DNA of 64,000 bases. It comes from Saccostrea cucullata (Eukaryota). Of the stretch, positions 850-30,327 are shown piece after piece. The DNA is taken from assembly GCF_032062105.1 (NCBI RefSeq), contig NW_026919344.1, forward strand, positions 1 through 64,000. The letters are read 5' to 3'. The notes beneath the pieces are model-generated. The model did not search any database, was not told the origin of the DNA, and saw only the letters and a list, made by a program, of their open reading frames with translations. Within the stretch, counting starts at the first letter, position 1; every line of letters starts with the position of its first letter. The translations under genes were made by a program, and so were the position numbers.

Positions 850-920
850 CATGATGCTAAAACATGGAATGTATACATTGATAACAATTTGTTCCAAAGC
901 GAGCCGAAGTCAAAACAACT

Positions 921-2096
921 ATGGCTTCACATTGCAAAAACAAGTTTTTCCTAACAATTCTCACTGTGGCTAGTTTGACATGGACAGTGACGTCAATGCA
1001 ACGAATAAGGAGCTGTTATAGCCCCGTAAAAGGTTACATTTTTTGTTCATTTACCATACATGATCAGTGGAACTTTGTGTACTTTAGATCGTGGCTGGAT
1101 TCCTTAAAAAGTCCGGTAAAGCATGTTGAGCTGAACCTCCAATGCCTTGGTAGCGGCTCCGTTTACCTTCCGTGGCCTATGAGAGCTCGTGGTCTTAAAA
1201 AGTTTCATATGAAGAATTGTAACATTAAAGGATACTTTTCCGAATATAATAAAGACCCAATATATCCGGATACCCTTACTGATATTTCAATGATTGACTG
1301 CACCATAGAAACTGATGTTAATTCAAACATTCAAAGGACTCTGCTTACCCGGGTATCAAAATCCTACAACTGTGGCCAGCAGACGGTCAGGAGTCACGTG
1401 ATGAGGAATATTTCGTTTTCCTTTCTACCTACCTCGTCCCCTCCTCCCCTTAAAGATCTAGACAGAGCGTTCTCAGCTATGCGTCGACAGTCGAGGAATC
1501 GTGAAAATGCTTGTAATTACCACAGCTTATTCCATATGGAAGAATCACAGAGTGACAGTGTTTCTTCCATTCATTTTGACGTTATGACAGATATTTCAGA
1601 TTATCCAAACCTGAAGACATTCAATTTTTCTTCAAATCTTTTGACTCATTTGCCGAGGCACCTTAAGCAATGGCACAAACATTTTCCAGCCTTAGAAATT
1701 CTCGATTTGTCAAAAAACCTTCTTCGAAATTTTGCTTTCGAGAAGCCAGGTGTATCTGGGCGTCGAAAAATAATTTTTGTAAATCTACAGCATAACAGAA
1801 TAACTGATGTACCTAGAAATATAGCTTCTTACATCGATGGACAAGTTCCTGTGATTATTGATTTAAGAAATAATCCGATAAAATGTACTTACAATACGTT
1901 TGAACTTGTGAAATATCTCAACAAAATGAAAGAAATGTTCCCCGTTTTAAGTTTTATGGCAGACATCAAGTGCACATTATCCACTATATCAAAGAAATCA
2001 AAACCACTGCAAAATCGCAATGATAAAGTATCCGAAAATGAAAATTCCAGTAGATCAAAATTTCTCCAACTGTTTAATTTGTTTGGTTTTAAGTGA
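921..2096 (+). CDS. Secreted Toll-ectodomain-like leucine-rich-repeat protein, paralogue 1 (single exon, no TM/TIR)
   Basis: 391-aa ORF with a hydrophobic N-terminus. LRR motifs LKTFNFSSNLL, LEILDLSKNLL, VNLQHNRI and IDLRNNPIKC. Shares the Cys-rich N-terminal block (FRxWL, PWPMRAR, KNCxI, YPD, CGQ, CNY) with the ORFs at 29.2 and 45.9 kb. Confidence 0.85.
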   Translation: MASHCKNKFFLTILTVASLTWTVTSMQRIRSCYSPVKGYIFCSFTIHDQWNFVYFRSWLDSLKSPVKHVELNLQCLGSGSVYLPWPMRARGLKKFHMKNCNIKGYFSEYNKDPIYPDTLTDISMIDCTIETDVNSNIQRTLLTRVSKSYNCGQQTVRSHVMRNISFSFLPTSSPPPLKDLDRAFSAMRRQSRNRENACNYHSLFHMEESQSDSVSSIHFDVMTDISDYPNLKTFNFSSNLLTHLPRHLKQWHKHFPALEILDLSKNLLRNFAFEKPGVSGRRKIIFVNLQHNRITDVPRNIASYIDGQVPVIIDLRNNPIKCTYNTFELVKYLNKMKEMFPVLSFMADIKCTLSTISKKSKPLQNRNDKVSENENSSRSKFLQLFNLFGFK

Positions 2097-6998: not shown

Positions 6999-8219
6999 TG
7001 TAGCGGGCTAGCGCTCTATGCCCGCTGCCCTGGGTATGGCTACTCCCAAATAAGTATGACGGTAAATTAGAGGGGAGGGAATGGCCGGCCTCCACCCCTT
7101 TTAGACACCAAGGCAGTCATTAAAAAGATATAAAAATGTACTCCAGCAAAATAAGAATAGATAAGAGAAAGAGTTAAATAACTTGAGATGATGGTGTATT
7201 CAGAGATAGAACTAATTAACCAAGACAACAAAAATTAATCAATAATCGAAAATCACTATAAAATAATTGGCTGCAGTCGTCTGTACAAAAATACTCTAAT
7301 CAAAAATAATTAACTTTCCCCAATTAATTAAATTCCAAAAAATATGCAGATCAAGTACTAAAATTTTATCAGATAATTCCTATTCAGTGAATAATTAATT
7401 TGTCTAAGTCTAAAATTTCCAATAAAAATCTAGAGAAAATAGACCTACATCTTCCTAAGAAAGAGAAAATGGCTGGAGTCCCCGTTGAACAACGGAACTC
7501 TCCTTATATACTAACAGGAAACGGATTCCGTTCCAAACTAACGTAATCTGATGAAAACTAACGGAATATCCGTTCAAAGAAAACGGAGAAACTTAACAGA
7601 AAATAGTTCCAAGACATAAAAACTATTATTTCTGAACACAATATTAAAAGACAATATAAGTTTAATTCATTCACAATAATAAAAATAAATTATTTACCTT
7701 GGAAACGTAATAACTAAATATTCAGCGTGTCAAGTCGGCGAAATAATTGGCCCGGCGGATCCAATAAAATACGCCGGAAGTATACCACAATGCATAGCGA
7801 AGACAAAAAAAATGTAAACAAGACGACTGGTAAGACAACTTCAGTTTGCAGCCAAATAAACACATTTACAATCGTAATACAGGTAACATATTAAATTACA
7901 TGTAATTTAGATAATGATTGTTCAATATATATAACAAGAAAAGAACCCTTTATAAGTGATTTACAGTACATAACATCATGTATCAATATGCATGTCAACG
8001 TAAAAATAGGCCAACACGTGTTTACATCTTAATATCAACTGGAATACTTTTTTTTTTGAATACAATATCATACGGAAATATGAATAGTTCCGACGGTATT
8101 TATAAAAGATACAACCATTATCTTCATTTCTTATTTAAATATATATAGATAATACTTAAAAATGCTCAAACACTCTCGTAGTTACAATTAGGGGTCGTAT
8201 CAAAAATCAAAACATTACA
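6999..8219 (-). repeat. 3' LTR
   Basis: Direct repeat of 16674-17896; abuts the PPT. Confidence 0.95.
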
Positions 8220-8232
8220 CTTCCCCCCACTT
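8220..8232 (-). promoter_or_regulatory. Polypurine tract (PPT)
   Basis: Minus strand reads AAGTGGGGGGAAG immediately before the TGTAAT start of the 3' LTR. Confidence 0.9.
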
Positions 8233-8601: not shown

Positions 8602-9981
8602 TCACTTTCTAAATCTCTTCACGGGCCCGTAATTTTGAAAAGTGGCTGGTCTGCGGTAATTCCTAATGGGTGATCTCATGATTCTTCTTGGAGGTGCTTC
8701 ATCTCTTAAGTTTCGGTCAGGCGTTCTCTGTCTTCTTGGGGGTACATCATCTCTTAAGTTTCGATTATCCCTAAGGCTTCTCAAGATGTCTGTTTGTACT
8801 TGTAATTCATGATGGATATTTCGCAAAGAATTCTGCAGATGGAACATATGGTTGAGCACTTCGAACATCACCCTTGTTGGTGACATGTCCCTCCTTTCTT
8901 CTGGTCGGGTCTCATCCCTGATTTGGCTCCTCCTTTGTTCTCCGGGCTCATCTCGATTTCGATTCCTCCCCGGTTCTACCTTCTCTTGATCAGGCTCTTC
9001 TTGGTTTCGGTTCCTTCTCCGTTCTATCCCCTCTTGATCAGGCTCTTGTTGACTTTGATTCCTTCTCGTTTCTACCTTCCCTTGATCAGGCTCTTGTTGA
9101 CTTTGATTCCTTCTCGTTTCTACCTTCCCTTGATCAGGCTCTTGTTGACTTTGATTCCTTCTCGTTTCTACCTTCCCTTGATCAGGCTCTTGTTGACTTT
9201 GAGTCCTTCTCGTTTCTACCTTCCCTTGATCAGGCTTCTTTTGAACAGGGGTTTCCACTTCTCTGGTTGTAGTAGAGAACGTAACTGCCTCCTCGATCTC
9301 CTCCTGTGGAGTATACGCAGGAGTCGAAATACTAGCCGATTCTTGATCCTCCGTCAAGAAATTGAAAAGCACATCGTCCGGATCTTGAAGATCCAGCAGA
9401 TCCGGGAACGGCGGGGCCATGATGGTGTGACTTGTCAGAGGGCTGGGAACAGACACCACTGCTGTGGCGGCCACCGGTGAAGGACGAGGGGGAGGAGGAC
9501 AGCTGGAGGTAGATAACAGTTGAGGGGCAGGTACTACTTCCGAGGGAGGACAGCTGGAGGAAGAGGGCGTAGATGGGTGGCTTGGGAGGTCGGATCCTGT
9601 CTTTTGTATCCTTCCCATCCAGATCCTCCTGGACTCCTCCCTGCTTAATTTCTCGAAGTGAATATCTTCAGTCGCCACGATCCCCTCCTTGTTCCTGTTT
9701 AGGTAGAATTCCTCCGCCTCTGGAAGCTTCCCTTGTCTCAGCAGGCCTTCCCTAGCCTCTTTGTGTTTGGCGTAGTTCTTGATGTGTTCTTTAAGCTTTG
9801 TTTCTTCGTCCGTCTGGAAATGACAAAGGCTACAATAATACGGGATGGAATCCAGTGGAATGTGGTATTTGTAAATGTGGCCAATTACATATCGCTTCTC
9901 CCCAACCTGCTTATCACACAGTAGGCATCTATACGCCCTACCCCGCTTCAGTATTTCTTTAGAGACCTGTAGGTCAGCCAT
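8602..9981 (-). CDS. Retrotransposon accessory ORF3: two C2H2-type zinc fingers, Pro/Ser-rich and acidic region, 16-aa repeats, coiled-coil-like segment, Arg-rich tail
   Basis: Uninterrupted ORF with first ATG at 9981. Motifs CLLC-x12-H-x4-H and CSLC-x12-H-x6-H; C-terminal PVKRFRK. Same strand as gag-pol, located between IN and the PPT. Confidence 0.85.
   Translation of the reverse strand: MADLQVSKEILKRGRAYRCLLCDKQVGEKRYVIGHIYKYHIPLDSIPYYCSLCHFQTDEETKLKEHIKNYAKHKEAREGLLRQGKLPEAEEFYLNRNKEGIVATEDIHFEKLSREESRRIWMGRIQKTGSDLPSHPSTPSSSSCPPSEVVPAPQLLSTSSCPPPPRPSPVAATAVVSVPSPLTSHTIMAPPFPDLLDLQDPDDVLFNFLTEDQESASISTPAYTPQEEIEEAVTFSTTTREVETPVQKKPDQGKVETRRTQSQQEPDQGKVETRRNQSQQEPDQGKVETRRNQSQQEPDQGKVETRRNQSQQEPDQEGIERRRNRNQEEPDQEKVEPGRNRNRDEPGEQRRSQIRDETRPEERRDMSPTRVMFEVLNHMFHLQNSLRNIHHELQVQTDILRSLRDNRNLRDDVPPRRQRTPDRNLRDEAPPRRIMRSPIRNYRRPATFQNYGPVKRFRK
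8940..9240 (-). repeat. 48-bp coding tandem repeat in ORF3 (QQEPDQGKVETRRNQS), six units plus a degenerate flank
   Basis: Anchor TTGATCAGGCT at 8986, 9034, 9082, 9130, 9178 and 9226. Confidence 0.92.
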
Positions 9982-10658
9982 CTGCAAAATAAGGTTTTAC
10001 AATAAAAAAATATCTTGAAGTTTAAATTCAACACATTATCCCCCCTTGTATTCTTTAGTGAAATATCTACGTGACGACTGCAGCTCTTGTACATGCTATG
10101 CATAATGTGTGACGATTCAATATTTCACCTATGATGTATTTGCTTCTTGGATCTTCTAAATATTCTCCTAAAAGACTTCTTTCTGCAAATACCCGTGATT
10201 AGGGAAACTCCAGAATGCGTTTGGCAAGTATTATCATATTAATTAGATATTGACTAGAAGGATAACAATATTTATCTATTTTAATATAAGATGAAGAAAT
10301 CCATAGGAAGAGCCAACAGTACATGATCCGGCAAAGTAACAATCTCCACAGACGTCACAAAGCCCACTCCGACAACATCCAACTCCAGGAACCAGACGAG
10401 AAGTAGTTTAAATATAAAATTTCTTCTTTCCTCTATATTTTACAGATACACCTATTTTACTTTATTTTATTATTATTTTTTTTTAATAAGAAGAACAACG
10501 CCCCTTGGGACTATATAGAATTAAATCTGATCATATTCAGAGACTCTCATACAAAATGATCCACCTGTATTACAACTGGAAGAGAACCACCATTTATTAA
10601 ATTTTATATCCTTGTATTTCGTAGGAAGAATAATTCAGGAGAAAACATCCGTACGTAT

Positions 10659-12030
10659 CTAGTCATGATAGGGCTTAAGCTTGTCATGATGTATAACTTT
10701 CTGGGTACGCTTGTCAAGGGATTTCACTCTGTAAGTAAGATCTGAGATTTTCTCCACAATAGTACAAGGTCCCCAGTAACAATTACTAAGTTTCCCTGTG
10801 TCGGATTCATTTAGAACCCAAACTTTGTCTCCAACCTTGTAGTTATTGAGAAAAGTTTTCAGATTATAGAAGTGTCTTTGTCTCTCTGCAGAGCTATTAA
10901 AGTGCTGTCTAGCTATCTTGTGTGCTTGTTGTAAGCGATCCCTTAGTGATTCCACATATTCCCCATAGTCTACCACAGAGTTATCTTCCTTTGTTCTACT
11001 GCCAAAAATGATCTCTGTAGGAATTCGCACTTCGCGTCCCAGCATCAAAAGATTTGGTGAAATACCTGTTGATTCGTGTACACTTGATCTGTATGCTGCA
11101 CCAAGGCATCCTAAATACAAGTCCCAGTCTGTTTTGTCATCTTTGATATAGCACTTAATCATTTTGAGGAGTGTTCTATTGAACCTTTCAGTTTTCCCAT
11201 TGCATTGAGGGTGACGTGGGGTAGTTCGCGTCTTCTTTATTTCAAGAAGTTCACATAATTCATGAAAAAGGTTACTTTCATAGTTACGACCTTGATCTGA
11301 ATGTATTGACTCTGGACAACCAAACCGACTTATAACCTCATTTAATAGTACCCTAGCTGTTGTGACTGCTGTCTGATCTGGAATAGGAAAAATTTCAACC
11401 CAGTTACTGAAATGATCAGTTGCCGTTAAAATATATTTGTTTCCCCTTGGGGTCTCTGGCAATGGACCCAGTATATCAGTGGACAACCTGTCCATAGGAG
11501 CTCCTACAGTCATGCATCCTAAACTTGCTCTCGGTTTGTGGTATGGTTTCCTGTTTTTCTCACAGACTTTACAACCTGACACATGAGCTGCAATATCCTC
11601 TTTCATTTCAAACCAGAAGAAATTCCGAGAAACTTTATCTTGGGTCTTTTTCCTTCCCAGATGACCACTCAGTAAATTGTCATGTGCTAAGGTAATTACT
11701 TCCTTCCTTAATTTTCTGGGGGTTACAAATTGCAAGTGAGATCCAGAGTTGTCTTTCTTGTGAAATTCTTTTAGTAATAGTCCATCTTTAATTTGAAGAG
11801 TGTCAAAGATATGCCAGTAGTATCTAACAGCTGGTGTTTGCATTAAAATTTCTAACCTATCAGGCCTAGTCTGGTTCTTCACCCATTCATACACGGGACC
11901 TATGTCTGGGTCATTTAGTTGATCTTTCTGTAATTGACTTCTACCGTATTTTGTCCAAAATGTAGTATAACCCTTCTCTTTGTTCTGTGTTTGTTGTCTA
12001 GTATTCACTGCCCTGATTTGTTGATCCTGC
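10659..12030 (-). CDS. pol: pol 3' part: integrase (out of frame with upstream pol)
   Basis: HHCC (HDNLLSGH...CKVC), D-D-E core (TDILG, SDQG, TERFN), GPY/F-like WGPCTI. No chromodomain. The frame change maps near the G7 run at 12030-12036. Confidence 0.92.
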
Positions 12031-14960
12031 CCCCCCAAGATCACATGCCTCCAAACTTTGGCCAGAAGCCTGGAAACAGGGATCTTGTTCCATGCTGGAT
12101 TTCTGTAAGAAAGAACTACACATTTCAAAAGATCTCTTCCGACATTTATTGCAAGGTCCACATTTTAAATATTCTAAGTTGTCTGTTTCAGGACAAGTAC
12201 AGTCTGCAGGATTTTCACATCTGCTCATAGCATCCGCATTCCCATGCTTGTGACCTGGGCGATATTGTACTGAAAAATTAAAGTAAGAAAGAATTTCTAA
12301 CCAACGGGCAATACGCCCTTTTGGTTCCCTGAGTTTGAATAACCAGACAAGTGCCTGATGGTTTCGCACTGTAAATCTCCGTCCAAGCAAATATTGCCTG
12401 AAATACTCTACAAAATATCTTAGAGCAAGTAATTCTTTGTCGGTAATACAATAATTCTTTTCTGACTTATTTAATGAACGACTCCCATATGCAATAACTT
12501 TTTCAGTGCCATTCTGTATTTGGGACAGGACGCCTCCAATTGCTACATCACTAGCATCTGTGTCTAGGATATATTCTCCTTCATCTAAAGGGTATGCCAA
12601 AATGTTAGGACTAGAAAAGGATTCCTTTAACTGTGTAAATACTTCTTCGCATTCCTCTGTCCAAATGAATGGCCTCCCTTTTTTAGTTAGTTCCACTAAA
12701 TGTCTTACTAGTTTAGCAAAATCTTTTATAAATTTCCTGTAATAACTCCCCATCCCTAGAAGTTGCCTAATTTCAGTAACCGTGGTTGGGCGAGGCCACT
12801 GTAAAATCTTTGAAGTATTATCGGGATTAGGCAGCACTCCTTCAGCTGATACCACATGGCCTAAAAATGTGACACTTGTTTGGAAAAGATTACACTTTTC
12901 TGGCTTAAGTTTCATTCCAGAACTTTTTATTCTTAAAAATACATCTTCAACTCTTTTCAGGTGCTCCTGGAAAGATGATCCAAAAACAACAATGTCATCG
13001 AGATAGATGATACAAGTCTGCCAGTTTAATCCTTGCAAAACAAGTTCCATAAGTCTCTGGAATGTGGCACAAGCTGTACTTAAACCCATAGGCATTGTAG
13101 TAAATTCGTAAAGTCCGTATTTGGTAATGAAGGCCGTCTTAGGAATATCTTCCTCTTTTACTGGTACCTGGTGGTATCCGGATGTAAGATCAAAAGTAGA
13201 AAAGTATACAGCTCCTCGGACTGTATCTAAGCAGTCCTGAACTCGAGGAAGTGGAAATGCATCCTGGCGAGTTACTGTATTAAGACGTCTATAGTCAATA
13301 CAACATCTGGTTTTTCCATTTTTCTTTTTAACTAATACTATGGGACTAGCCCAAGGAGAACTGGACTTTCTAATTATTCCTTGTTCCATCATTTGTTTGA
13401 CAACTTTTTGTTCCTCTTCTGCAAATGCTAAAGGCACTCTTCTTGGAGGCTGTCTAATAGGCTTGGCACTCCCTGTATCAATTTCATGATGTACAAGTGT
13501 AGTGACTCCTAAATCGGTATCGTCTTTTGAAAAGATAGACTGATAATTAGAGAGTAGATCTGCAATTTCTTTGCATTCTTCATGAGTTTTGTTTTGAATT
13601 GCTCTGTTATATAATTCTAAAAGATGATCAGGAACAATTGACTCTGAAGAGTTGTCTCCCTTGTCAGAGTGATCTACTTGTAGTTTCCTAACTTGTTCTC
13701 TACTTAATTGATCCTTGTTTTCTGACGACAAGACTTCTGTAATATTTAAGGGATGGACAAGTTCTGCTTCTCCTAAAACATCATCCTGCTGTATCTTGGA
13801 TTCTGTATTGAATGGATTTAAAACTCTAATTTTTGCTGAAATTGTATTCTCCATGTCTGTCAAACAAGAAGCCATTAAAAGAGGAAACCGATTATTGAAA
13901 TCACTTGTAGGTTCTATACAAAAGATAGTACTCTGTAAATCCTTGTCAGACTCAAATCTGTCAATAAAAACATCTATCAGCTTCTCACAGTAAGCCGGAA
14001 TGACATAATCATCTGCTGCTATAACCCTCCTGGTTTTGTCGAGTGTTTGTCTAAATTCAATTTCTGTTCCTCCAAAATTGATAGTATTATCATGCAAGTT
14101 TATATTGACTGGTCCATTTTCTGGTTTTAACAGTATATCTAATCCTAAGAGTGCTTGGTCCTCTATTTCTGCCACAATTATCTCCTCCTGGCAGGTCTGA
14201 TGACCAAGTTGAACTTCAAAAATGGCCTTTCCAAACTCTTTCAGTGGTTCTCCACTTACACTTGTTAACAATGTAGACTTATTTAACTTTGGTCTCTGGT
14301 CTTGAGGAATTCTCTCATAAGTTTTCTTTGATATAATGGATCTTGTCGCACCAGTATCTGTAGTCCACACCAAATCTACTCCTTGTACAGATCCATTTAT
14401 ATATACTCCTGGACAGCTATTGATTTGTCTTAAAACACTAGTAACAACATCCGTGCAACAACTCCTATTAAGTAGTTCAGCTGCTTCTGTATCAAGCATC
14501 TCACTTGATGTAAGTTGAGTGTCAGACTCACTCATATTAAGTAATTCACCGGCATTTGTATCAAGCATCTCACTTGATGTAAGTTGAGTATCAGACTCAC
14601 CATATGTCTGAGTTTCACAATTAGGGTTAACAATGGGCACCACATCACAGTCCACTAAACTGTCTCCAAGTGTGTCCAAATAACCAACCATCCTATTTTC
14701 CTCCACTTTACAAAGTGTCCGCTGATCATGAGATTTACAAGGCCCACTACCTATACTCTCAGCATCATAAAATATATCTTCATCTAAATCGCAGTGATCT
14801 CCCTTAATTTGTTGCAAATTATCCTCTACTGCCTCTGTGCTTCCAGACAAATCAAAGCAGGTATTTTGCTTCTCAATTATACAACAATTTTGAAAAGTTT
14901 GGCCATCCTTAAAATTCAACCGGGTCATCCCTTGGCCCTCAGAGCTGACCCTTTCTAGTT
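12031..14960 (-). CDS. pol: pol 5' part: aspartic protease, reverse transcriptase, RNase H
   Basis: DTG protease motif; RT motifs SPWASP, CIDYRRLN, DLTSGYHQ and YLDD; RNase H TDASD...KELLA...NADAMSR. The frame is -1 relative to gag and stays open across the gag stop. Confidence 0.93.
14466..14600 (-). repeat. 69-bp in-frame tandem duplication in the acidic pre-protease region of pol
   Basis: ESDTQLTSSEMLDTxAxELLN occurs twice. Confidence 0.85.
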
Positions 14961-14964
14961 TGAC
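14922..14964 (-). promoter_or_regulatory. Putative gag-pol -1 ribosomal frameshift signal
   Basis: G TCA AAC directly before the gag TAG, a 6-nt spacer, then the stem GGGTCA/TGACCC. Confidence 0.55.
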
Positions 14965-16571
14965 GAAGATTTAAATTCAGCAGCTCTAGGATTAAGTCTA
15001 CTCTCCACATTTCCATTCTGAACCTTCTTTTCGCTTGAACAATTCCTTGCAAAATGCCCTTGTTCACCACAGCGGTAACATATCAGGGGGTGCTTCTGTT
15101 TACGGGGCTGTTCTATGTTTGAAGAGGATTCTGAGGAGAGGACTTCATTTAAGATGTCCTTTAGTTCTGCTCTGGTTATAAAATCAGAATTTTTCTGACT
15201 CTGTTTGACTCTACTGCCCTGTTCAGGAGTTTGTTTTTGTTGACCTTCTGTTTCTTTAGGATTCATTTTAGGCTTTGTGAAAATTCTAGGATTTTTGTCT
15301 GTGGCCTTTGGAGAGCTAGCTGGTTTCATCTGTTGACCTACTTGTCGTATTTGTTTCCTTTTGTGATAGCGGTCATTTTCATCATCTGCTCTGGGGTACC
15401 TAGTTGTCTCCTCATACTCAATAATAAACTTGACAGCTTCCTCAATGGTAGAGGGATCTTTGTTTAGCTCGACATAAATCCTAGCCTTCTCATTCATGAG
15501 ACCTAGTAAAAACCGTGAAACTAGATCCTCTTGTCGTGTAACATGATCTCTATTTGGGTAAGCCTTACTGTAGAGGCTTTTTAACGCTGCACCATAAGAC
15601 TGGGCAGATTCTCCATTTCTCTGGTCCCTTCTCCTGAATTTTGTCTGAAAGGTCTTATGAGATTCATAAACCCCAAAACGATTCCCAAGTTCCCTTCTCA
15701 GTTTCCTGTAGCTTGTCAAAATTTCTGAACTTAACTCCTCAAAAACAAACTCGCCTGCTATGCCTTGTAATCTCGGCAAGAGCTGTCCTAACTTTTGTTT
15801 GTCTGTCCATCTGTTGTGACTGGCTAGAGCCTCAAATCTATTGATGTAGGCTTTCCAACTTTCATCTGGGTCTCCTTTGAAAGCAGGTAGTTTTACTGAA
15901 ACTTGTTTTTCTTTGAAAATCCTGTTTGTAGAGACAGAACTTGCATTGTCACCTGAGTCAGACCCATCACTTGACTCATCACTGTTTGAGTCCTTGTTGG
16001 TACTCTTGTTGAGCATACTTTTTGTCTGTGATTTGTTGTGTTCTTTATTGACATGGGGGTTTTCTTTGAAATCTTTTAAAGTAGTTTTGAAAATATTCCC
16101 TATGGTCTCAGTCATCTTGCTGAGTGCTCCATTTATCATTTGAGCAAATGTTTCTAACATATTTGTTTGGCTTTGATTTATTGAGTTTTCATTCTTGTCA
16201 GGATCTTTTCCTTCATTTTGAGTATTCCTATCTTGTGTGAGGTTTGAGGATCTTGACATTCTTTTAGTGTATGTCTTGTTTCTCTTGTTCTTAGAAATGA
16301 GAGGACTTGCATTTGAAGATCTGTTGACTTTTTGTGGGGGTTGTACTATAATTTCAGGATACAGTACATGTACACCCTCTGTGTTTGAATGATCCTCTTT
16401 GTTTGAATGATCCTCTGCATCTGAGTTGCATGTGGAGTTGTCCTCATCATATTCTGTTAAAAATTCCTCCTCACTTTCTCCTGTGAAATTTTCTACTTCC
16501 GTGGGACAGATTATTTGGTTTGTCTCAGTGTCCATTTGTTCTCTCAAAGCTGCCTGGCGTCTTGTAAACAT
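14955..16571 (-). CDS. gag: Gag (capsid-like domain and CCHC zinc knuckle)
   Basis: First ATG at 16571 (MFTRRQA). Capsid-type region KLPAFKG...WKAYINRFE...W; knuckle CYRCGEQGHFARNC. Confidence 0.92.
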   Translation of the reverse strand: MFTRRQAALREQMDTETNQIICPTEVENFTGESEEEFLTEYDEDNSTCNSDAEDHSNKEDHSNTEGVHVLYPEIIVQPPQKVNRSSNASPLISKNKRNKTYTKRMSRSSNLTQDRNTQNEGKDPDKNENSINQSQTNMLETFAQMINGALSKMTETIGNIFKTTLKDFKENPHVNKEHNKSQTKSMLNKSTNKDSNSDESSDGSDSGDNASSVSTNRIFKEKQVSVKLPAFKGDPDESWKAYINRFEALASHNRWTDKQKLGQLLPRLQGIAGEFVFEELSSEILTSYRKLRRELGNRFGVYESHKTFQTKFRRRDQRNGESAQSYGAALKSLYSKAYPNRDHVTRQEDLVSRFLLGLMNEKARIYVELNKDPSTIEEAVKFIIEYEETTRYPRADDENDRYHKRKQIRQVGQQMKPASSPKATDKNPRIFTKPKMNPKETEGQQKQTPEQGSRVKQSQKNSDFITRAELKDILNEVLSSESSSNIEQPRKQKHPLICYRCGEQGHFARNCSSEKKVQNGNVESRLNPRAAEFKSSSN

Positions 16572-16648
16572 AATTGAAGTATCATACAATCAAAAATTTA
16601 ACATTTGTAGCAAGTCCGTATCGCTGGATCCACGCCTTAAAACAGTGG

Positions 16649-16666
16649 ATCCCACTTCTGACACCA
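16649..16666 (-). promoter_or_regulatory. Primer binding site complementary to the 3' end of tRNA-Leu
   Basis: TGGTGTCAGAAGTGGGAT, 7 nt inside the 5' LTR; complementary to ATCCCACTTCTGACA+CCA of tRNA-Leu(CAA/CAG). Confidence 0.9.
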
Positions 16667-16673
16667 AATAAAA

Positions 16674-17896
16674 TGTAGCGGGCTAGCGCTCTATGCCCGC
16701 TGCCCTGGGTATGGCTACTCCCAATTAAGTATGACGGTAAATTAGAGGGGAGGGAATGACCGGCCTCAACCCCATTTAGACACCAAAGCAGTCATTAAAA
16801 AAGAAATAAATGTACTCCAGCAAAATAAAAATAAATAAGAGTAAGAGTTAAATAACTTGAGATGATGGTTTATTCAGAGATAGAACTAATTAATCAAAAG
16901 AACAAAAAATAATCAATAATCGAAAATCACTATAAAATAATTGGCTGCAGTCGTCTGTACAAAAATACTCTAATCAAAAATAATTAACTTTCCCCAATTA
17001 ATTAAATTCCAAAAAATATGCAGATCAAATACTAAAATTTTATCAGACAATTCCTATTCAGTGAATAATTAATTTCTCTAACTCTAAGTCTAAAATTTCC
17101 AATAAAAATCTAGAGAAAATAGACCTACATCTTCCTAAGAAAGAGAAAAAGGCTGGAGTCCCCGTTGAACAACGGAACTCTCCTTATATACTAACAGGGA
17201 ACGGATTCCGTTCCAAACTAACGTAATCTGATGAAAACTAACGGAATATCCGTTCAAAGAAAACGGAGAAACTTAACAGAAAATAGTTCCAAGACATAAA
17301 AACTATTATTTCTGAACACAATATTAAAAGACAATATAAGTTTAATTCATTCACAATAATAAAAATAAATTATTTACCTTGGAAACGTAATAACTAAATA
17401 TTCAGCGTGTCAAGTCGGCGAAATAATATGGCCCGGCGGATCCAATAAAATACGCCGGAAGTATACCACAATGCATAGCGAAGACAAAAAAAATGTAAAC
17501 AAGACGACTGGTAAGACAACTTCAGTTTGCAGCCAAATAAACACATTTACAATCGTAATACAGGTAACATATTAAATTACATGTAATTTAGATAATGCTT
17601 GTTCAATATAACAAGAAAAGAACCCTTTATAAGTGATTTACAGTACATAACATCATGTATCAATATGCATGTCAACGTAAAAATAGGCCAACACGTGTTT
17701 ACATCTTAATATCAACTGGAATACTTTTTTTTTTGAATACAATATCATACGGAAATATGAATAGTTCCGACGGTATTTATAAAAGATACAACCATTATCT
17801 TCATTTCTTATTTAAATATATATAGATAATACTTAAAAATGCTCAAACACTCTCGTAGTTACAATTAGGGGTCGTATCAAAAATCAAAACATTACA
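16674..17896 (-). repeat. 5' LTR
   Basis: Direct repeat of 6999-8219. Minus-strand TATATAAG at 17183-17190 and AATAAA at 16869-16874. Confidence 0.95.
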
Positions 17897-19714
17897 GAGC
17901 TGTGAGGAAGTAATATGACAGAAATACGACATGCATACCGGGAACTCAGTACAAAATACTGAATACTCCCTCATTGCAAATAAATTAAACAAATGTATGG
18001 TTACCAATTGGCGCTTCAGAACACTATTGGGCTACCTAACTGAAGTAAGTTGACTCCTTTCAATCAATTTAACATTTAACAAATCAACTTGACAGCAGAG
18101 CAATGATGGACCTCTTAATACGTCAGATGTGGGATCAGGTCCCATGGAAGAGTAAGATCCGAAAATCTTCATTCAACCAAGAATTGCACCTCAATTGCTG
18201 AATACATTTTCTCAACCGGTCACAATTGGTTTGTATGATACAGGTCATATTCCTCTTTTTAAATCATTAGTGTACAATGCATTAACAGTTTATGATTATG
18301 ATAACTATACCCTTATAAATTCCAAAAAATGACAATATTAAAAATAAGTAGGGATCAATTCCCTTTGGTTTTCTCCTGAATGACAGATAAAGTTTATTCT
18401 TACATCTCTTAAAACTTAAAATAATGAAACATTTCACAGATTTAATTAACTTTCATATTTTTTCCAAGAATTTTTTTTAATTTTACGATAACCGATATTG
18501 CATCAAATAAGCATCGTGGAATATGCACCTCAGACCTCAGGAAAGGTAAAACTCAAAAAGTTATTCGAACATCCCATAAATCAATCAAGAGAAAAGAAAA
18601 AAAATGATTACTATTCCAATCACAATAACTCAATTTTATTTCGTTTATTCATTAGCTAGTTAAACATCAGAAATCTATAATTTTTATCAGTTTAGGAAGA
18701 GAACTGCATTAATTTAGGGACAATATGATAGAAATATTTCATATACAGTCGATGAATGGAGCCAAAAAAATAAATAAAGGAACAAATATGCATACAGCAA
18801 ATATAGTAAATTTCTAAAACACTATTATAAACCATGTTGGACATTAAAGGCTATAGAAGAATTTATTAAAAGCTTTCATGTATTTTTCATTTCTATATGT
18901 AGAAAGACTTCTAATTTAAAAGAAAATATAAATGTTAAAAAAAGATCTGAATGTGATTTTTCATTTTGATTTTACTTTTGTAATTGATATTTCGGCAAGT
19001 TAATGTTATCAATTTTCACTTACATAAAAAATAATGATTAATTTAAGATAATAATAACTCTGAAGACCTCTCTCATCAAAACACACAAAAATGTCAGCGA
19101 CACAAGCAATATACTAGTAAATAAAATTTTCAGATTGCCTTGTCCTTTCTTTAGTAAAAGAAATATAGCATATATTAAAAACAAAGGACTAAAAAAGTAA
19201 ACAAACAAATAACACAACAACATTTAAAAAAAAATCCCATACATTTACACGTTTACATGTTTAATTAAAATGTTTTAAAACTTTACACAAAATGAATCCG
19301 GACCTTTGTGAAATGCGTCTGTCTGTCTTGAGTTCATAGGTAAAGGTTGATTTACATGATTGAAAGAATTAATCAACAGTAATTAATCAAGGCTAAGTGA
19401 TAAATCGTATAAGCAAATATTTGTTTTAAAAAGCGCACACATCAATGGAATTCAGATGATAAAGTAGCATTTCTTTATCGAAAAAAAAAATCAAAATTGC
19501 ATTAAGATTTTGGAACTCCTAGAAATTCTTGAAATATATAATTGTATCATTAAAATATTTGGGGAAAAAATGTAAATATGAGTTATATTGATGATTTATA
19601 TATTGTTTTACGTCAAATTGACAGTATTTTAGTCATTACAAATTTTGCGATCTTTCCTTTAAATGAAACCTGAAAATAACAAGCATAAATCGAGCTCAAC
19701 ATTTGATGAAACAA

Positions 19715-26140: not shown

Positions 26141-26290
26141 GCCCGCGTGGCGCAGTGGTTAGAGCGTCTGCTCTGGAGTCGCGAAGTAAAGTGTCAATCC
26201 TTACGTCGCGGGTTCGAATCCCACTGTGGGATGTTGAGACCGGTCCTTCGGATGAGACCGTATAAACCGAGGTCCCGTGTCGCAGTAGGG
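26141..26290 (+). mobile_element. tRNA-head SINE with Deu/Nin-like domain, 3'-truncated
   Basis: A-box TGGCGCAGTGG and B-box GGTTCGAATCC, then GGTCCTTCGGATGAGACCGTATAAACCGAGGTCCCGTGTC. Confidence 0.8.
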
Positions 26291-29114: not shown

Positions 29115-29159
29115 TGATTGGCCTACACATATAATTAAAATAACTGTTATGATATAAAG
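29115..29159 (+). promoter_or_regulatory. Putative promoter of paralogue 2: inverted CCAAT box and TATA box
   Basis: TGATTGG at 29115-29121 and TATAAAG at 29153-29159, with ATG at 29200. Confidence 0.55.
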
Positions 29160-29199
29160 CGAAGTGAAGGAATTTTATCTAGTACACATATTTATCAAG

Positions 29200-30327
29200 A
29201 TGAGACTAGAACTTTTCGTTTTGTTAACCGTTCTCTTGAATATTCTGCACATATGTTCCAGTTCTTTGATTGACAATTCCTATCACAGGTATTGCCGGAC
29301 AAACATTCATGGAGATCAAAACTGCTACTTCACGGTAGCCTATTGGTTCAATTTTCTAAATTTTCGTCAGTGGTTAGAAAAACTTCCAGATCCACTTGGT
29401 GATGTGTCATTAAACATTTACTGTTTTGATGGAGCCCATATTTATTTGCCGTTTCCATTCCGGGCCAGAAATCTCAAGAAACTGCATGTTAAGAACTGTC
29501 TGATCAGAAGTTTCATGTCTGAGTGGAATTCAACATCGCAATATCCCGACATCCTAGAGGAGCAAGAGATAGAAAATAGTGAAATTGAGGTTGACTATCA
29601 AACTATGCAAGAAGTCATTGGTAGCACACTCAACAAAAAGAATGACTGTGGGCAGGAAACGCTTATAAAGCTGACTTTGAAAAACAATACATACAAACCT
29701 GTGGTCAAGGATCCAAATGTTTCTATGAAATCCATGGCTGATTCATTCGAGGCTTTTCAGGATAGGATGAAATCTGCAGATTATTTGTGTAACTACAAAC
29801 ATCTCAAATACTTGGAACGTTCAGCTGAAACACCTCTTAGTAAAAACTACATGAATACTTTGACAGACAAATCACATTACCCAAGGTTAGAGACCATCAA
29901 AATGAGGTCAAATAAAATTGTGAATTTCCCAGAACAGTTTAAGAGATGGTGGGATGTTTTTCCTACACTACGTGAACTTGATCTATCCAACAACTCATTA
30001 CAAAATTTTTCATTTGATATTCCTAGGAAACCCACAACAAACCTCGTACCTTTACTTGTAAATCTTAGACAGAATGACATAAAAATGGTTCCTTCAGACA
30101 TTGACAAGTATTTGTCACAATTACCTATAATTATAGATGTGGGAGAAAATCCTATAAAATGTGATTGCAACGCAGAGAAACTCGGAAATTATCTAAGATC
30201 TGTTCGACGCCGATATCCTTTATACAAATACTTGACCGAGGTTGTATGCAAATCACCCAGTCAAGTAAAAGATATCAAACTTATTTACATAAACTATGAA
30301 AAATGTTCTCACACTAAGGAAATCTAA
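29200..30327 (+). CDS. Secreted Toll-ectodomain-like LRR protein, paralogue 2 (complete LRR C-terminal cap, no TM/TIR)
   Basis: First ATG at 29200, followed by signal-peptide-like MRLELFVLLTVLLNILHICSS. LRRs LRELDLSNNSL and VNLRQNDI. LRRCT NPIKCDC...VCKSP...C, then a stop. Confidence 0.88.
   Translation: MRLELFVLLTVLLNILHICSSSLIDNSYHRYCRTNIHGDQNCYFTVAYWFNFLNFRQWLEKLPDPLGDVSLNIYCFDGAHIYLPFPFRARNLKKLHVKNCLIRSFMSEWNSTSQYPDILEEQEIENSEIEVDYQTMQEVIGSTLNKKNDCGQETLIKLTLKNNTYKPVVKDPNVSMKSMADSFEAFQDRMKSADYLCNYKHLKYLERSAETPLSKNYMNTLTDKSHYPRLETIKMRSNKIVNFPEQFKRWWDVFPTLRELDLSNNSLQNFSFDIPRKPTTNLVPLLVNLRQNDIKMVPSDIDKYLSQLPIIIDVGENPIKCDCNAEKLGNYLRSVRRRYPLYKYLTEVVCKSPSQVKDIKLIYINYEKCSHTKEI

What the first reader, a model, noticed from the sequence alone, without database searches (positions are those of the whole stretch)
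9979..10010. ORF3 ATG is fused directly to a 3' splice acceptor, implying a spliced subgenomic mRNA
Seen: the minus strand reads ...TTTTTTTATTGTAAAACCTTATTTTGCAG|ATG GCT GAC, a pyrimidine-rich tract ending in CAG immediately before the first ATG. Candidate donors lie in the 5' LTR: GAT|GTAGGT (GT at 17128-17127, about 60 nt past the TATA box) and AAG|GTAAAT (17377-17376). Known: errantivirus and retroviral env and accessory genes are expressed by splicing from the leader. Inference: a short LTR exon is spliced across gag-pol onto ORF3.
Basis: partly seen in the sequence, partly recalled or inferred. Interest (0 to 1): 0.7.

Follow-up and report, generated by a model that had tools for sequence, protein, structure and literature searches.

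The report
Spliced zinc-finger accessory gene in retrotransposons
A jumping-gene family of marine invertebrates carries an apparently undescribed third gene for a two-zinc-finger nuclear protein, and relatives keep a splice signal just before its start, which suggests it is made from its own spliced message and regulates the element, as regulatory genes of complex retroviruses do.

Summary
In the window alone the site is unremarkable (rank 9 of 734 AGs). Relatives make the case: an acceptor-like site lies 0-10 nt before the ORF3 start in 12 of 20 loci (10 of 14 families), against 3.8% of other ATGs. The spacing is not frame-locked, which points to a non-coding upstream exon. ORF3 is not Env. 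It belongs to a large family with no Pfam model of its own: two C2H2-type fingers, a low-complexity linker, a helix and a basic tail, and no membrane segment. RNA data were uninformative: no ORF3 coverage and no junction. The donor is unresolved. 17128 is the best candidate, 17377 lies upstream of the likely promoter, and an internal promoter is not excluded. Splicing onto ORF3 is textbook. What is new is the accessory protein family, most likely a nuclear regulator working like Rev or Cer1 CERV (function inferred, not shown).

The parts
16674..17896 (-). 5' LTR (1223 bp, TG...CA ends)
   Evidence: about 98% identical to the 3' LTR; 4-bp target-site duplication
17184..17190 (-). TATA box; transcription start inferred about 30 nt downstream (near 17160)
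   Evidence: TATATAA also in the related LTRs of L012 and L022; start site is inference
17123..17131 (-). Best candidate splice donor (GT at 17128-17127), in the inferred R region and upstream of the polyA signal; no ATG in the exon it would close
   Evidence: (best of 26 GT, 1.8 bits); use not shown
17372..17380 (-). Donor-like site (GT 17377-17376) upstream of the TATA; probably U3 and not used
16869..16874 (-). AATAAA polyA signal in the 5' LTR (the 3' LTR has AATACA at 7200-7195)
16649..16666 (-). Primer-binding site (tRNA-Leu type by recall, not tested); holds a weak GT at 16655
14955..16571 (-). gag (538 aa; CCHC knuckle, weak PNMA-like capsid match)
10659..14970 (-). pol (protease, RT, RNase H, integrase with C-terminal module), interrupted: two open frames, 14970-11998 and 12164-10659
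9982..10658 (-). 677-nt non-coding spacer with 11 ATGs; 3' end of the inferred intron; holds a rival TATA-like site (about 10608) and donor-like GT (10564) and a second acceptor-like site (10182)
9982..10010 (-). 3' splice acceptor: T-rich tract ending in CAG
   Evidence: positional conservation in relatives
8602..9981 (-). ORF3, 459 aa: N-terminal two-finger domain, Pro/Ser/Thr linker with an acidic-hydrophobic patch, 16-aa repeats, conserved helix, Arg/Lys-rich tail
9763..9927 (-). Two C2H2-type zinc fingers (C19, C22, H35, H40; C50, C53, H66, H73)
8897..9280 (-). 48-nt (16-aa) tandem repeats in ORF3
8220..8232 (-). Polypurine tract
6999..8219 (-). 3' LTR (1221 bp)

Best explanation
The site is the 3' splice acceptor of a subgenomic mRNA for the accessory gene of a Ty3/gypsy retrotransposon. 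Transcription starts in the 5' LTR. Part of the RNA is spliced from a non-coding leader exon (most likely ending at 17129) across gag-pol to 9981, so ORF3 is translated from its own ATG. Unspliced RNA serves as gag-pol mRNA and genome. The product is a nuclear two-zinc-finger protein. My most likely role for it is post-transcriptional: it binds element RNA and lets intron-containing genomic RNA escape splicing or nuclear retention, like Rev or Cer1 CERV. SHOWN: element anatomy, ORF3 family and fold, linkage to pol, positional conservation of the acceptor, lack of frame-locking. INFERRED: that splicing happens (about 0.85), that the donor is in the LTR or leader (about 0.65; 17128 itself about 0.45), and the RNA-export role (about 0.35). 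The confidence figure refers to a spliced subgenomic mRNA from the LTR or leader.
For: One generic acceptor rule passes at the ORF3 start in 12 of 20 metagenome loci (10 of 14 families), against 54 of 1411 sense-strand ATGs and 5 of 200 spacer ATGs; binomial 7e-8 for 10 of 14 at a generous 10% chance per locus. L021, fetched later, passes, as do the second ORF3 copy in L003 and L018/L019 once their ATG is located. Acceptor-to-ATG distances are 0, 2, 3, 4, 5, 7, 8 and 10 nt. Protein read-throughs upstream of the start show the translated footprint of an acceptor in 18 of 49 cases against 43 of 455 internal Mets, p 2e-6. The closest relatives P0003, P0004, P0013 and P0158 have Gln directly before the start Met, as here. 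14 of 20 loci plus L021 have pol sequence upstream on the same strand. Spacers as short as 108-125 nt (L001, L005) have no TATA and no donor above 0 bits. In L003 about 330 nt of spacer, acceptor and ORF start are duplicated in tandem, each copy with its own acceptor. For a nuclear regulator: basic last 30 residues in 42 of 60 long relatives and no hydrophobic segment in 60 of 60; finger 2 has C-x2-C-x12-H-x6-H in 62 of 84, and 0 of 84 have the TGEKP linker of tandem DNA-binding fingers.
Against: No junction was seen, and ORF3 had zero depth in all 4 runs laid while gag-pol and LTR were covered in the two contig runs (the tool warns that dips are no finding, but it is not support). The window's own acceptor is mediocre, and a higher-scoring AG lies at 10182. 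8 of 20 loci failed the rule (L003, L004, L005, L008, L016, L018, L019, L020). The rule was written after I had looked at the sequences, and the 13 sites in the matrix were partly picked by eye. No donor is conserved in strength or place: the first candidates after the TATA are weak in L012 (-0.4 bits), and the best L022 sites lie 145-845 nt on, behind ATGs. The window's spacer has a TATA-like site and a better-scoring donor (10564, 3.1 bits). Fold searches gave no significant match: Foldseek found none at E<=0.001, with DNA-binding C2H2 arrays ranked first; best VIA Z was 3.6. So RNA binding is a lead only.
Confidence: 0.65

Rival explanations
1. ORF3 is transcribed from an internal promoter in the pol 3' end or spacer, with a short 5'-UTR intron ending at the same acceptor (here TATA-like site about 10608, donor 10564).
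For: Both motifs are present and the donor scores 3.1 bits. The L008/L009/L011 family has a donor-like GT 95 nt before its acceptor, and L002 has one of 4.4 bits. It explains the acceptor conservation equally well.
Against: L001 and L005 spacers (108, 125 nt) lack both TATA and donor. The two duplicated L003 cassettes share the acceptor but no donor by eye. No common position across 11 spacers.
Confidence: 0.17
2. The mRNA is spliced, but the protein is a transcriptional transactivator or a sequence-specific anti-silencing factor that binds LTR DNA (Tas/Tat-like or VANC-like; these analogies are recalled).
For: Weak top Foldseek rows are DNA-binding C2H2 proteins such as CTCF and Kaiso (E 0.07-0.1). 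An acidic-hydrophobic patch is kept in P0001-P0003. A basic tail also fits a nuclear localisation signal.
Against: No TGEKP linker in 84 of 84. The finger 2 spacing and the weak VIA rows (JAZ, U1C, SF3A2, Bud20-type entries, Z 2.7-3.5; some identities recalled) lean to RNA-binding fingers.
Confidence: 0.35
3. The acceptor receives a donor inside gag or at the end of integrase and gives a fusion protein (Cer1 CERV shares gag exons).
For: Donor-like sites at 16474 and 15952 score higher than 17128. Two database proteins, P0082 and P0131, join integrase C-terminal sequence to this domain.
Against: Acceptor-to-ATG distance takes all three frames across relatives, and the Met is nearly invariant. 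The fusions may be gene-model or deletion artefacts (P0026 and P0120 are chimeric with unrelated sequence).
Confidence: 0.08
4. The AG is a trans-splice acceptor, or a relic of the host intron captured with the gene, or chance; ORF3 is translated by internal entry or reinitiation.
For: No conserved donor was found, no junction was seen, and the site is mediocre in the window.
Against: It is retained across proteins only 30-50% identical while the surrounding spacer is unalignable and 108-677 nt long. A functionless relic would not persist. Trans-splicing is not known to me in molluscs (recalled; host identity not established).
Confidence: 0.1

Closest known systems
Cer1 CERV of C. elegans (PMC10309623; abstract and one results section read)
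   Same: LTR retrotransposon accessory protein from a spliced mRNA; nuclear; cysteine finger, helical region and basic NLS candidate; required for export of unspliced genomic RNA.
   Different: CERV is a 5-exon product sharing gag exons and has no reported homology outside nematodes. ORF3 here lies after pol, starts at its own ATG and has two C2H2-type fingers. Sequence homology to CERV was not tested.
Errantivirus env and other spliced ORF3s of Ty3/gypsy elements (PMC5408684 and PMC13524379; passages read)
   Same: Third ORF after pol. PMC5408684 states that ORF3s are typically expressed from spliced messages.
   Different: No signal peptide-like or membrane segment (max 19-residue hydropathy 1.13; 0 of 60 long relatives reach 1.8). 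The ORF3 types listed for rotifers (env, TM, coiled coil, GDSL, DEDDy) do not include a zinc-finger type in the passages seen.
Foamy virus LTR layout (PMC3694450; abstract read)
   Same: If 17128 is the donor, it lies in the LTR upstream of the polyA signal, as the foamy virus major splice donor does; there U1 binding suppresses 5' polyadenylation.
   Different: This is a Ty3/gypsy element without env; donor use and U1 control are untested here.
MDG1-group sORF1/sORF2 (PMC11952523; passages read)
   Same: Env-less Ty3/gypsy elements with accessory ORFs.
   Different: Those are small, lie upstream of gag, and sORF2 is a membrane fusogen.
Retroviral Rev/Rex/Rec (recalled)
   Same: Spliced accessory product with basic Arg-rich region, helix and leucine/acidic patch, in an element that must export intron-containing RNA.
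   Different: No sequence or fold link was found; ORF3 is 3-4 times longer and has a folded two-finger domain.

Membership tests
Ty3/gypsy LTR retrotransposon | Two LTRs with TG...CA ends, target-site duplication, PBS and PPT | tested here: met
Ty3/gypsy LTR retrotransposon | gag then pol in the order protease-RT-RNase H-integrase | tested here: met
   (pol is split over two frames in this copy)
Ty3/gypsy LTR retrotransposon | Clade placement by RT phylogeny (Mag/C-clade, CsRN1, MolGy clades of PMC6238403) | not testable with these tools
Errantivirus / env-type ORF3 | ORF3 is a membrane glycoprotein (signal peptide, TM segment, fusogen homology) | tested here: not met
   no hydrophobic segment; no env Pfam match
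Spliced subgenomic ORF3 mRNA | Conserved 3' acceptor just upstream of ORF3 | tested here: met
   12 of 20 loci against 3.8% background; further passes
Spliced subgenomic ORF3 mRNA | Conserved 5' donor in LTR or leader | tested here: inconclusive
   weak, unconserved candidates in the window, L003, L012, L022
Spliced subgenomic ORF3 mRNA | Junction in RNA | tested here: inconclusive
   no ORF3 depth in 4 of 4 runs laid, of 24 listed
Rev/CERV-type export factor | Needed for cytoplasmic accumulation of unspliced RNA; binds an element in it | not testable with these tools
   needs experiment
Rev/CERV-type export factor | Nuclear-type composition (basic tail, no membrane segment) | tested here: met
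   42 of 60 and 60 of 60; unspecific
Rev/CERV-type export factor | Sequence or fold homology to CERV or Rev | tested here: inconclusive
   neither appears in the fold searches of the N-terminal domain; no direct comparison made
Classical tandem C2H2 (Kruppel-type) DNA-binding proteins | TGEKP linker between fingers | tested here: not met
   0 of 84
U1C/matrin/JAZ-type RNA-binding fingers | Widely spaced His pair and long helix; significant profile or fold match | tested here: inconclusive
   H-x6-H in 62 of 84; PF12171 in 1 of 84; VIA Z 3.5 or less

The most novel reading that the evidence does not exclude
A widespread lineage of env-less Ty3/gypsy elements in marine invertebrates are 'complex' retroelements. 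They encode a dedicated, spliced, two-zinc-finger regulator, so far unnamed, that controls the balance of spliced and unspliced RNA (a Rev-like switch evolved independently of retroviruses and Cer1) or blocks host silencing; some elements have duplicated it.
Probability: 0.35. Interest if true: 0.75.

Novelty: new variant of a known kind. Interest (0 to 1): 0.55.

Why it matters
Spliced expression of a third ORF is expected and scores low by itself. The follow-up shows what is being expressed: a conserved accessory protein family with hundreds of hits, a confident fold, no Pfam family of its own and no description found in seven literature searches. How LTR retrotransposons export intron-containing RNA and evade silencing is open for most lineages, and Cer1 CERV is the one worked example I read. 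This family gives a second, unrelated candidate with a defined acceptor, testable with one RT-PCR and a reporter assay. It also warns that these element genes can pass as host zinc-finger genes in invertebrate annotations (inference).

Tried and rejected
RNA test: 24 runs listed, only 5 holding any part, all at a small share (0.05-0.14). 4 runs were laid on 9300-17950 at 88% likeness: depth 0 over 9300-10455, 23 and 11 reads laid from the two raw-read runs, and three joints, none GT-AG and none at the acceptor. This is uninformative. One contig (X2 record 16) ends exactly at 17129, the base before the candidate donor, but it is one of some 266 contig ends and extends into U3, so I do not count it. 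No whole genome is held, so copies in the host could not be compared. The cluster-member look-up could not be made, so names and host taxa of the relatives stay unknown. The later search gave one name, 'hypothetical protein', among 10 hits, and no forms of 1104-3150 aa were found (weak). Viral contigs: 0 of 8 candidate stretches confirmed. Fold searches of the finger domain found nothing significant in PDB (Foldseek and VIA wide) or viral models. The Atlas gave unnamed clusters at 0.95-0.97 with no taxa. Pfam: only sub-threshold C2H2 matches. Earlier scan findings: none by sequence or words. Literature searches for this ORF family found no description in listings or in the passages read; Repbase entries, subscription papers and supplements were not seen and may mention it. 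Rejected: Env or fusogen identity; donor 17377; a conserved spacer promoter. A binomial printed used a miscounted 10 of 13 and is replaced.

Full report
Observation. The quoted minus-strand text is present: a T-rich tract at 10010-9985, CAG at 9984-9982 and ATG at 9981-9979, the first Met of an open frame ending at 8602. Both donor-like sites are present, with GT at 17128 and 17377. By itself the acceptor is ordinary. It ranks 9 of 734 AGs in the internal region on an ad hoc score, falls outside the top 10 with a matrix from relatives, and 2.8% of all window ATGs (69 of 2495) have such a site within 12 nt.

The element. Direct repeats at 17896-16674 and 8219-6999 are LTRs with TG...CA ends, a 4-bp target duplication, a primer-binding site and a polypurine tract. 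They differ at 22 positions and 12 gap columns, so the insertion is young. Gag has a CCHC knuckle, and pol has protease, RT, RNase H and integrase in Ty3/gypsy order. Pol is interrupted, being spread over two frames that overlap at 12164-11998. ORF3 follows 677 nt after the pol stop, behind 11 other ATGs. The host is an animal. A marine invertebrate, probably a bivalve, is my inference from the neighbouring leucine-rich-repeat genes, the GC content and the origin of the related contigs; it was not established.

ORF3 is not Env. Its N-terminal 134 residues hit 662 cluster representatives at E<=0.001 and 95 at E<=1e-10. Of the 150 listed, 17 are multi-finger proteins that I set aside as unrelated; the rest match once, mostly at the N-terminus. 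The alignment keeps eight zinc ligands, and AlphaFold2 gives a confident model (pLDDT 94, pTM 0.81). Pfam has only sub-threshold C2H2 matches, and three fold searches gave nothing significant. Finger 2 has C-x2-C-x12-H-x6-H in 62 of 84 members, and none has the TGEKP linker. Behind the domain come a variable low-complexity linker, a helix shared with P0003 and P0004 and a basic tail in 42 of 60 long relatives. None of the 60 has a membrane-like segment after its first Cys.

The acceptor is a family trait. A metagenome scan gave 20 loci, 14 of them with pol sequence upstream on the same strand. Four begin too close to the gene to tell, and L013 and L020 show none. One generic rule (YYNYAG within 12 nt of an ATG, at least 9 of 14 pyrimidines, no nearer AG) passes at the ORF3 start in 12 of 20 loci, or 10 of 14 families by nucleotide clustering. 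Controls are 54 of 1411 sense ATGs, 37 of 1192 antisense ATGs and 5 of 200 spacer ATGs. At a generous 10% chance per locus the binomial is 7e-8. The rule was written after I had seen the sequences, which weakens it as a test. The misses are L003, L005 and L008 (acceptor-like by eye but under the thresholds), L016 (ATG lost), L018 and L019 (ATG outside the range searched; both pass), and L004 and L020 (no clear start). L021, fetched afterwards, passes, and L022 has no upstream sequence. In 13 sites, partly chosen by eye, position -5 is T in 13 and -3 is C in 13; in leave-one-out scoring 8 of 13 rank in the top 4 AGs of their contig, and the worst ranks 72 of 782. An independent view from proteins: where gene callers read through upstream of the start, the footprint of an acceptor precedes the Met in 18 of 49, against 43 of 455 internal Mets. 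The closest relatives have Gln-Met exactly as here.

What the spacing says. The acceptor lies 0, 2, 3, 4, 5, 7, 8 or 10 nt before the ATG. All frames occur and the Met is kept, so the upstream exon is most simply non-coding. The 'fusion' of AG to ATG in this copy is one end of a range, not a special device. L003 carries a tandem duplicate of about 330 nt of spacer, acceptor and ORF start (74% identical), each with its own acceptor directly before the ATG, which suits expression by alternative acceptors.

The donor is not settled. TATATAA at 17190 has counterparts in the LTRs of L012 and L022. LTR differences cluster downstream of it (3 events in 736 bp against 21 in 487 bp, hand-counted and tested), which may mark the U3/R boundary (inference). 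That places 17377 in U3. 17128 is the best of 26 GTs between the TATA and the gag ATG and leaves no ATG in a leader of about 30 nt, but it scores only 1.8 bits on recalled weights. The matching candidates in L012, L022 and L003 are weak or elsewhere. A donor in R ahead of the polyA signal (16874) would resemble foamy viruses (PMC3694450, abstract). The rival internal promoter has motifs in this spacer (about 10608 and 10564) but none in the short spacers of L001 and L005.

RNA. Four of 24 listed runs were laid. Two contig runs cover LTR, gag and pol with copies mostly 90-99% alike. The two raw-read runs gave 23 and 11 reads. All four have zero depth over 9300-10455 and no GT-AG joint. The test neither supports nor refutes.

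Mechanism. Most likely, LTR-driven RNA is either left unspliced (genome, gag-pol) or spliced from a short leader to 9981 (ORF3). An element with such an intron must export intron-containing RNA. In Cer1 this is done by CERV, the product of a spliced mRNA (PMC10309623, abstract and the section on CERV). ORF3's nuclear-type composition, basic tail and non-Kruppel fingers fit that role, and the weak VIA rows include RNA-binding fingers. The weak Foldseek rows are DNA-binding arrays, and a transactivator or anti-silencing role is about as likely. None of this is shown.

Comparison and novelty. Spliced ORF3 expression is stated as typical in PMC5408684 (passages). Non-env ORF3 types and accessory ORFs are known (PMC5408684, PMC11952523, PMC2774666; passages). 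The mollusc survey PMC6238403 has no occurrence of 'zinc' or 'ORF' in its main text, and PMC13524379 none of 'zinc finger' or 'splice'. Seven searches found no description of this family; Repbase, subscription papers and supplements were not seen. Verdict: a real, conserved acceptor for a known kind of expression, serving an accessory protein family that appears undescribed. New variant of a known kind; interest 0.55.

Noticed in passing
L003:8516-8944: Second tandem copy of spacer, acceptor and zinc-finger ORF downstream of the first ORF3; the contig ends inside it.
   Followed up: partly
window 17896-16674 vs 8219-6999: LTR differences are concentrated in the inferred R-U5 part (21 events in 487 bp against 3 in 736 bp), as if the two R-U5 regions came from different templates, or by later recombination or an assembly chimera.
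   Followed up: partly
window 7200-7195: The 3' LTR has AATACA where the 5' LTR has AATAAA, so 3' end formation of this copy may be weakened.
   Followed up: no
window 17130-17125: An ATG followed at once by TAG overlaps the candidate donor: a start-stop uORF in unspliced RNA that splicing at 17128 would remove.
   Followed up: no
window 9300-10455: Zero depth in all four runs although gag-pol and LTR of other copies are covered; other copies may carry a diverged ORF3 region, or reads were filtered.
   Followed up: no
P0082, P0131: Database proteins joining integrase C-terminal sequence to the ORF3 finger domain; may be gene-model artefacts, deletions or a second splice.
   Followed up: partly
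L021, L022: Two contigs of a bacterial genome bin (titled Sedimenticola sp.) are Ty3/gypsy elements of this family, most likely host DNA in the bin. L022's LTR is followed by another primer-binding site (tandem element).
   Followed up: partly
window 885-2096, 29158-30327, 45931-46929 (+): Three related single-frame host ORFs with leucine-rich repeats and hydrophobic N-termini.
   Followed up: partly
window 14461-14598: Two 69-nt tandem copies in the pol frame upstream of protease, holding several donor-like GT sites, including the top scorer at 14600.
   Followed up: no
window 26141-26232 (+): ARAGORN calls a tRNA-Ser-like sequence.
   Followed up: no
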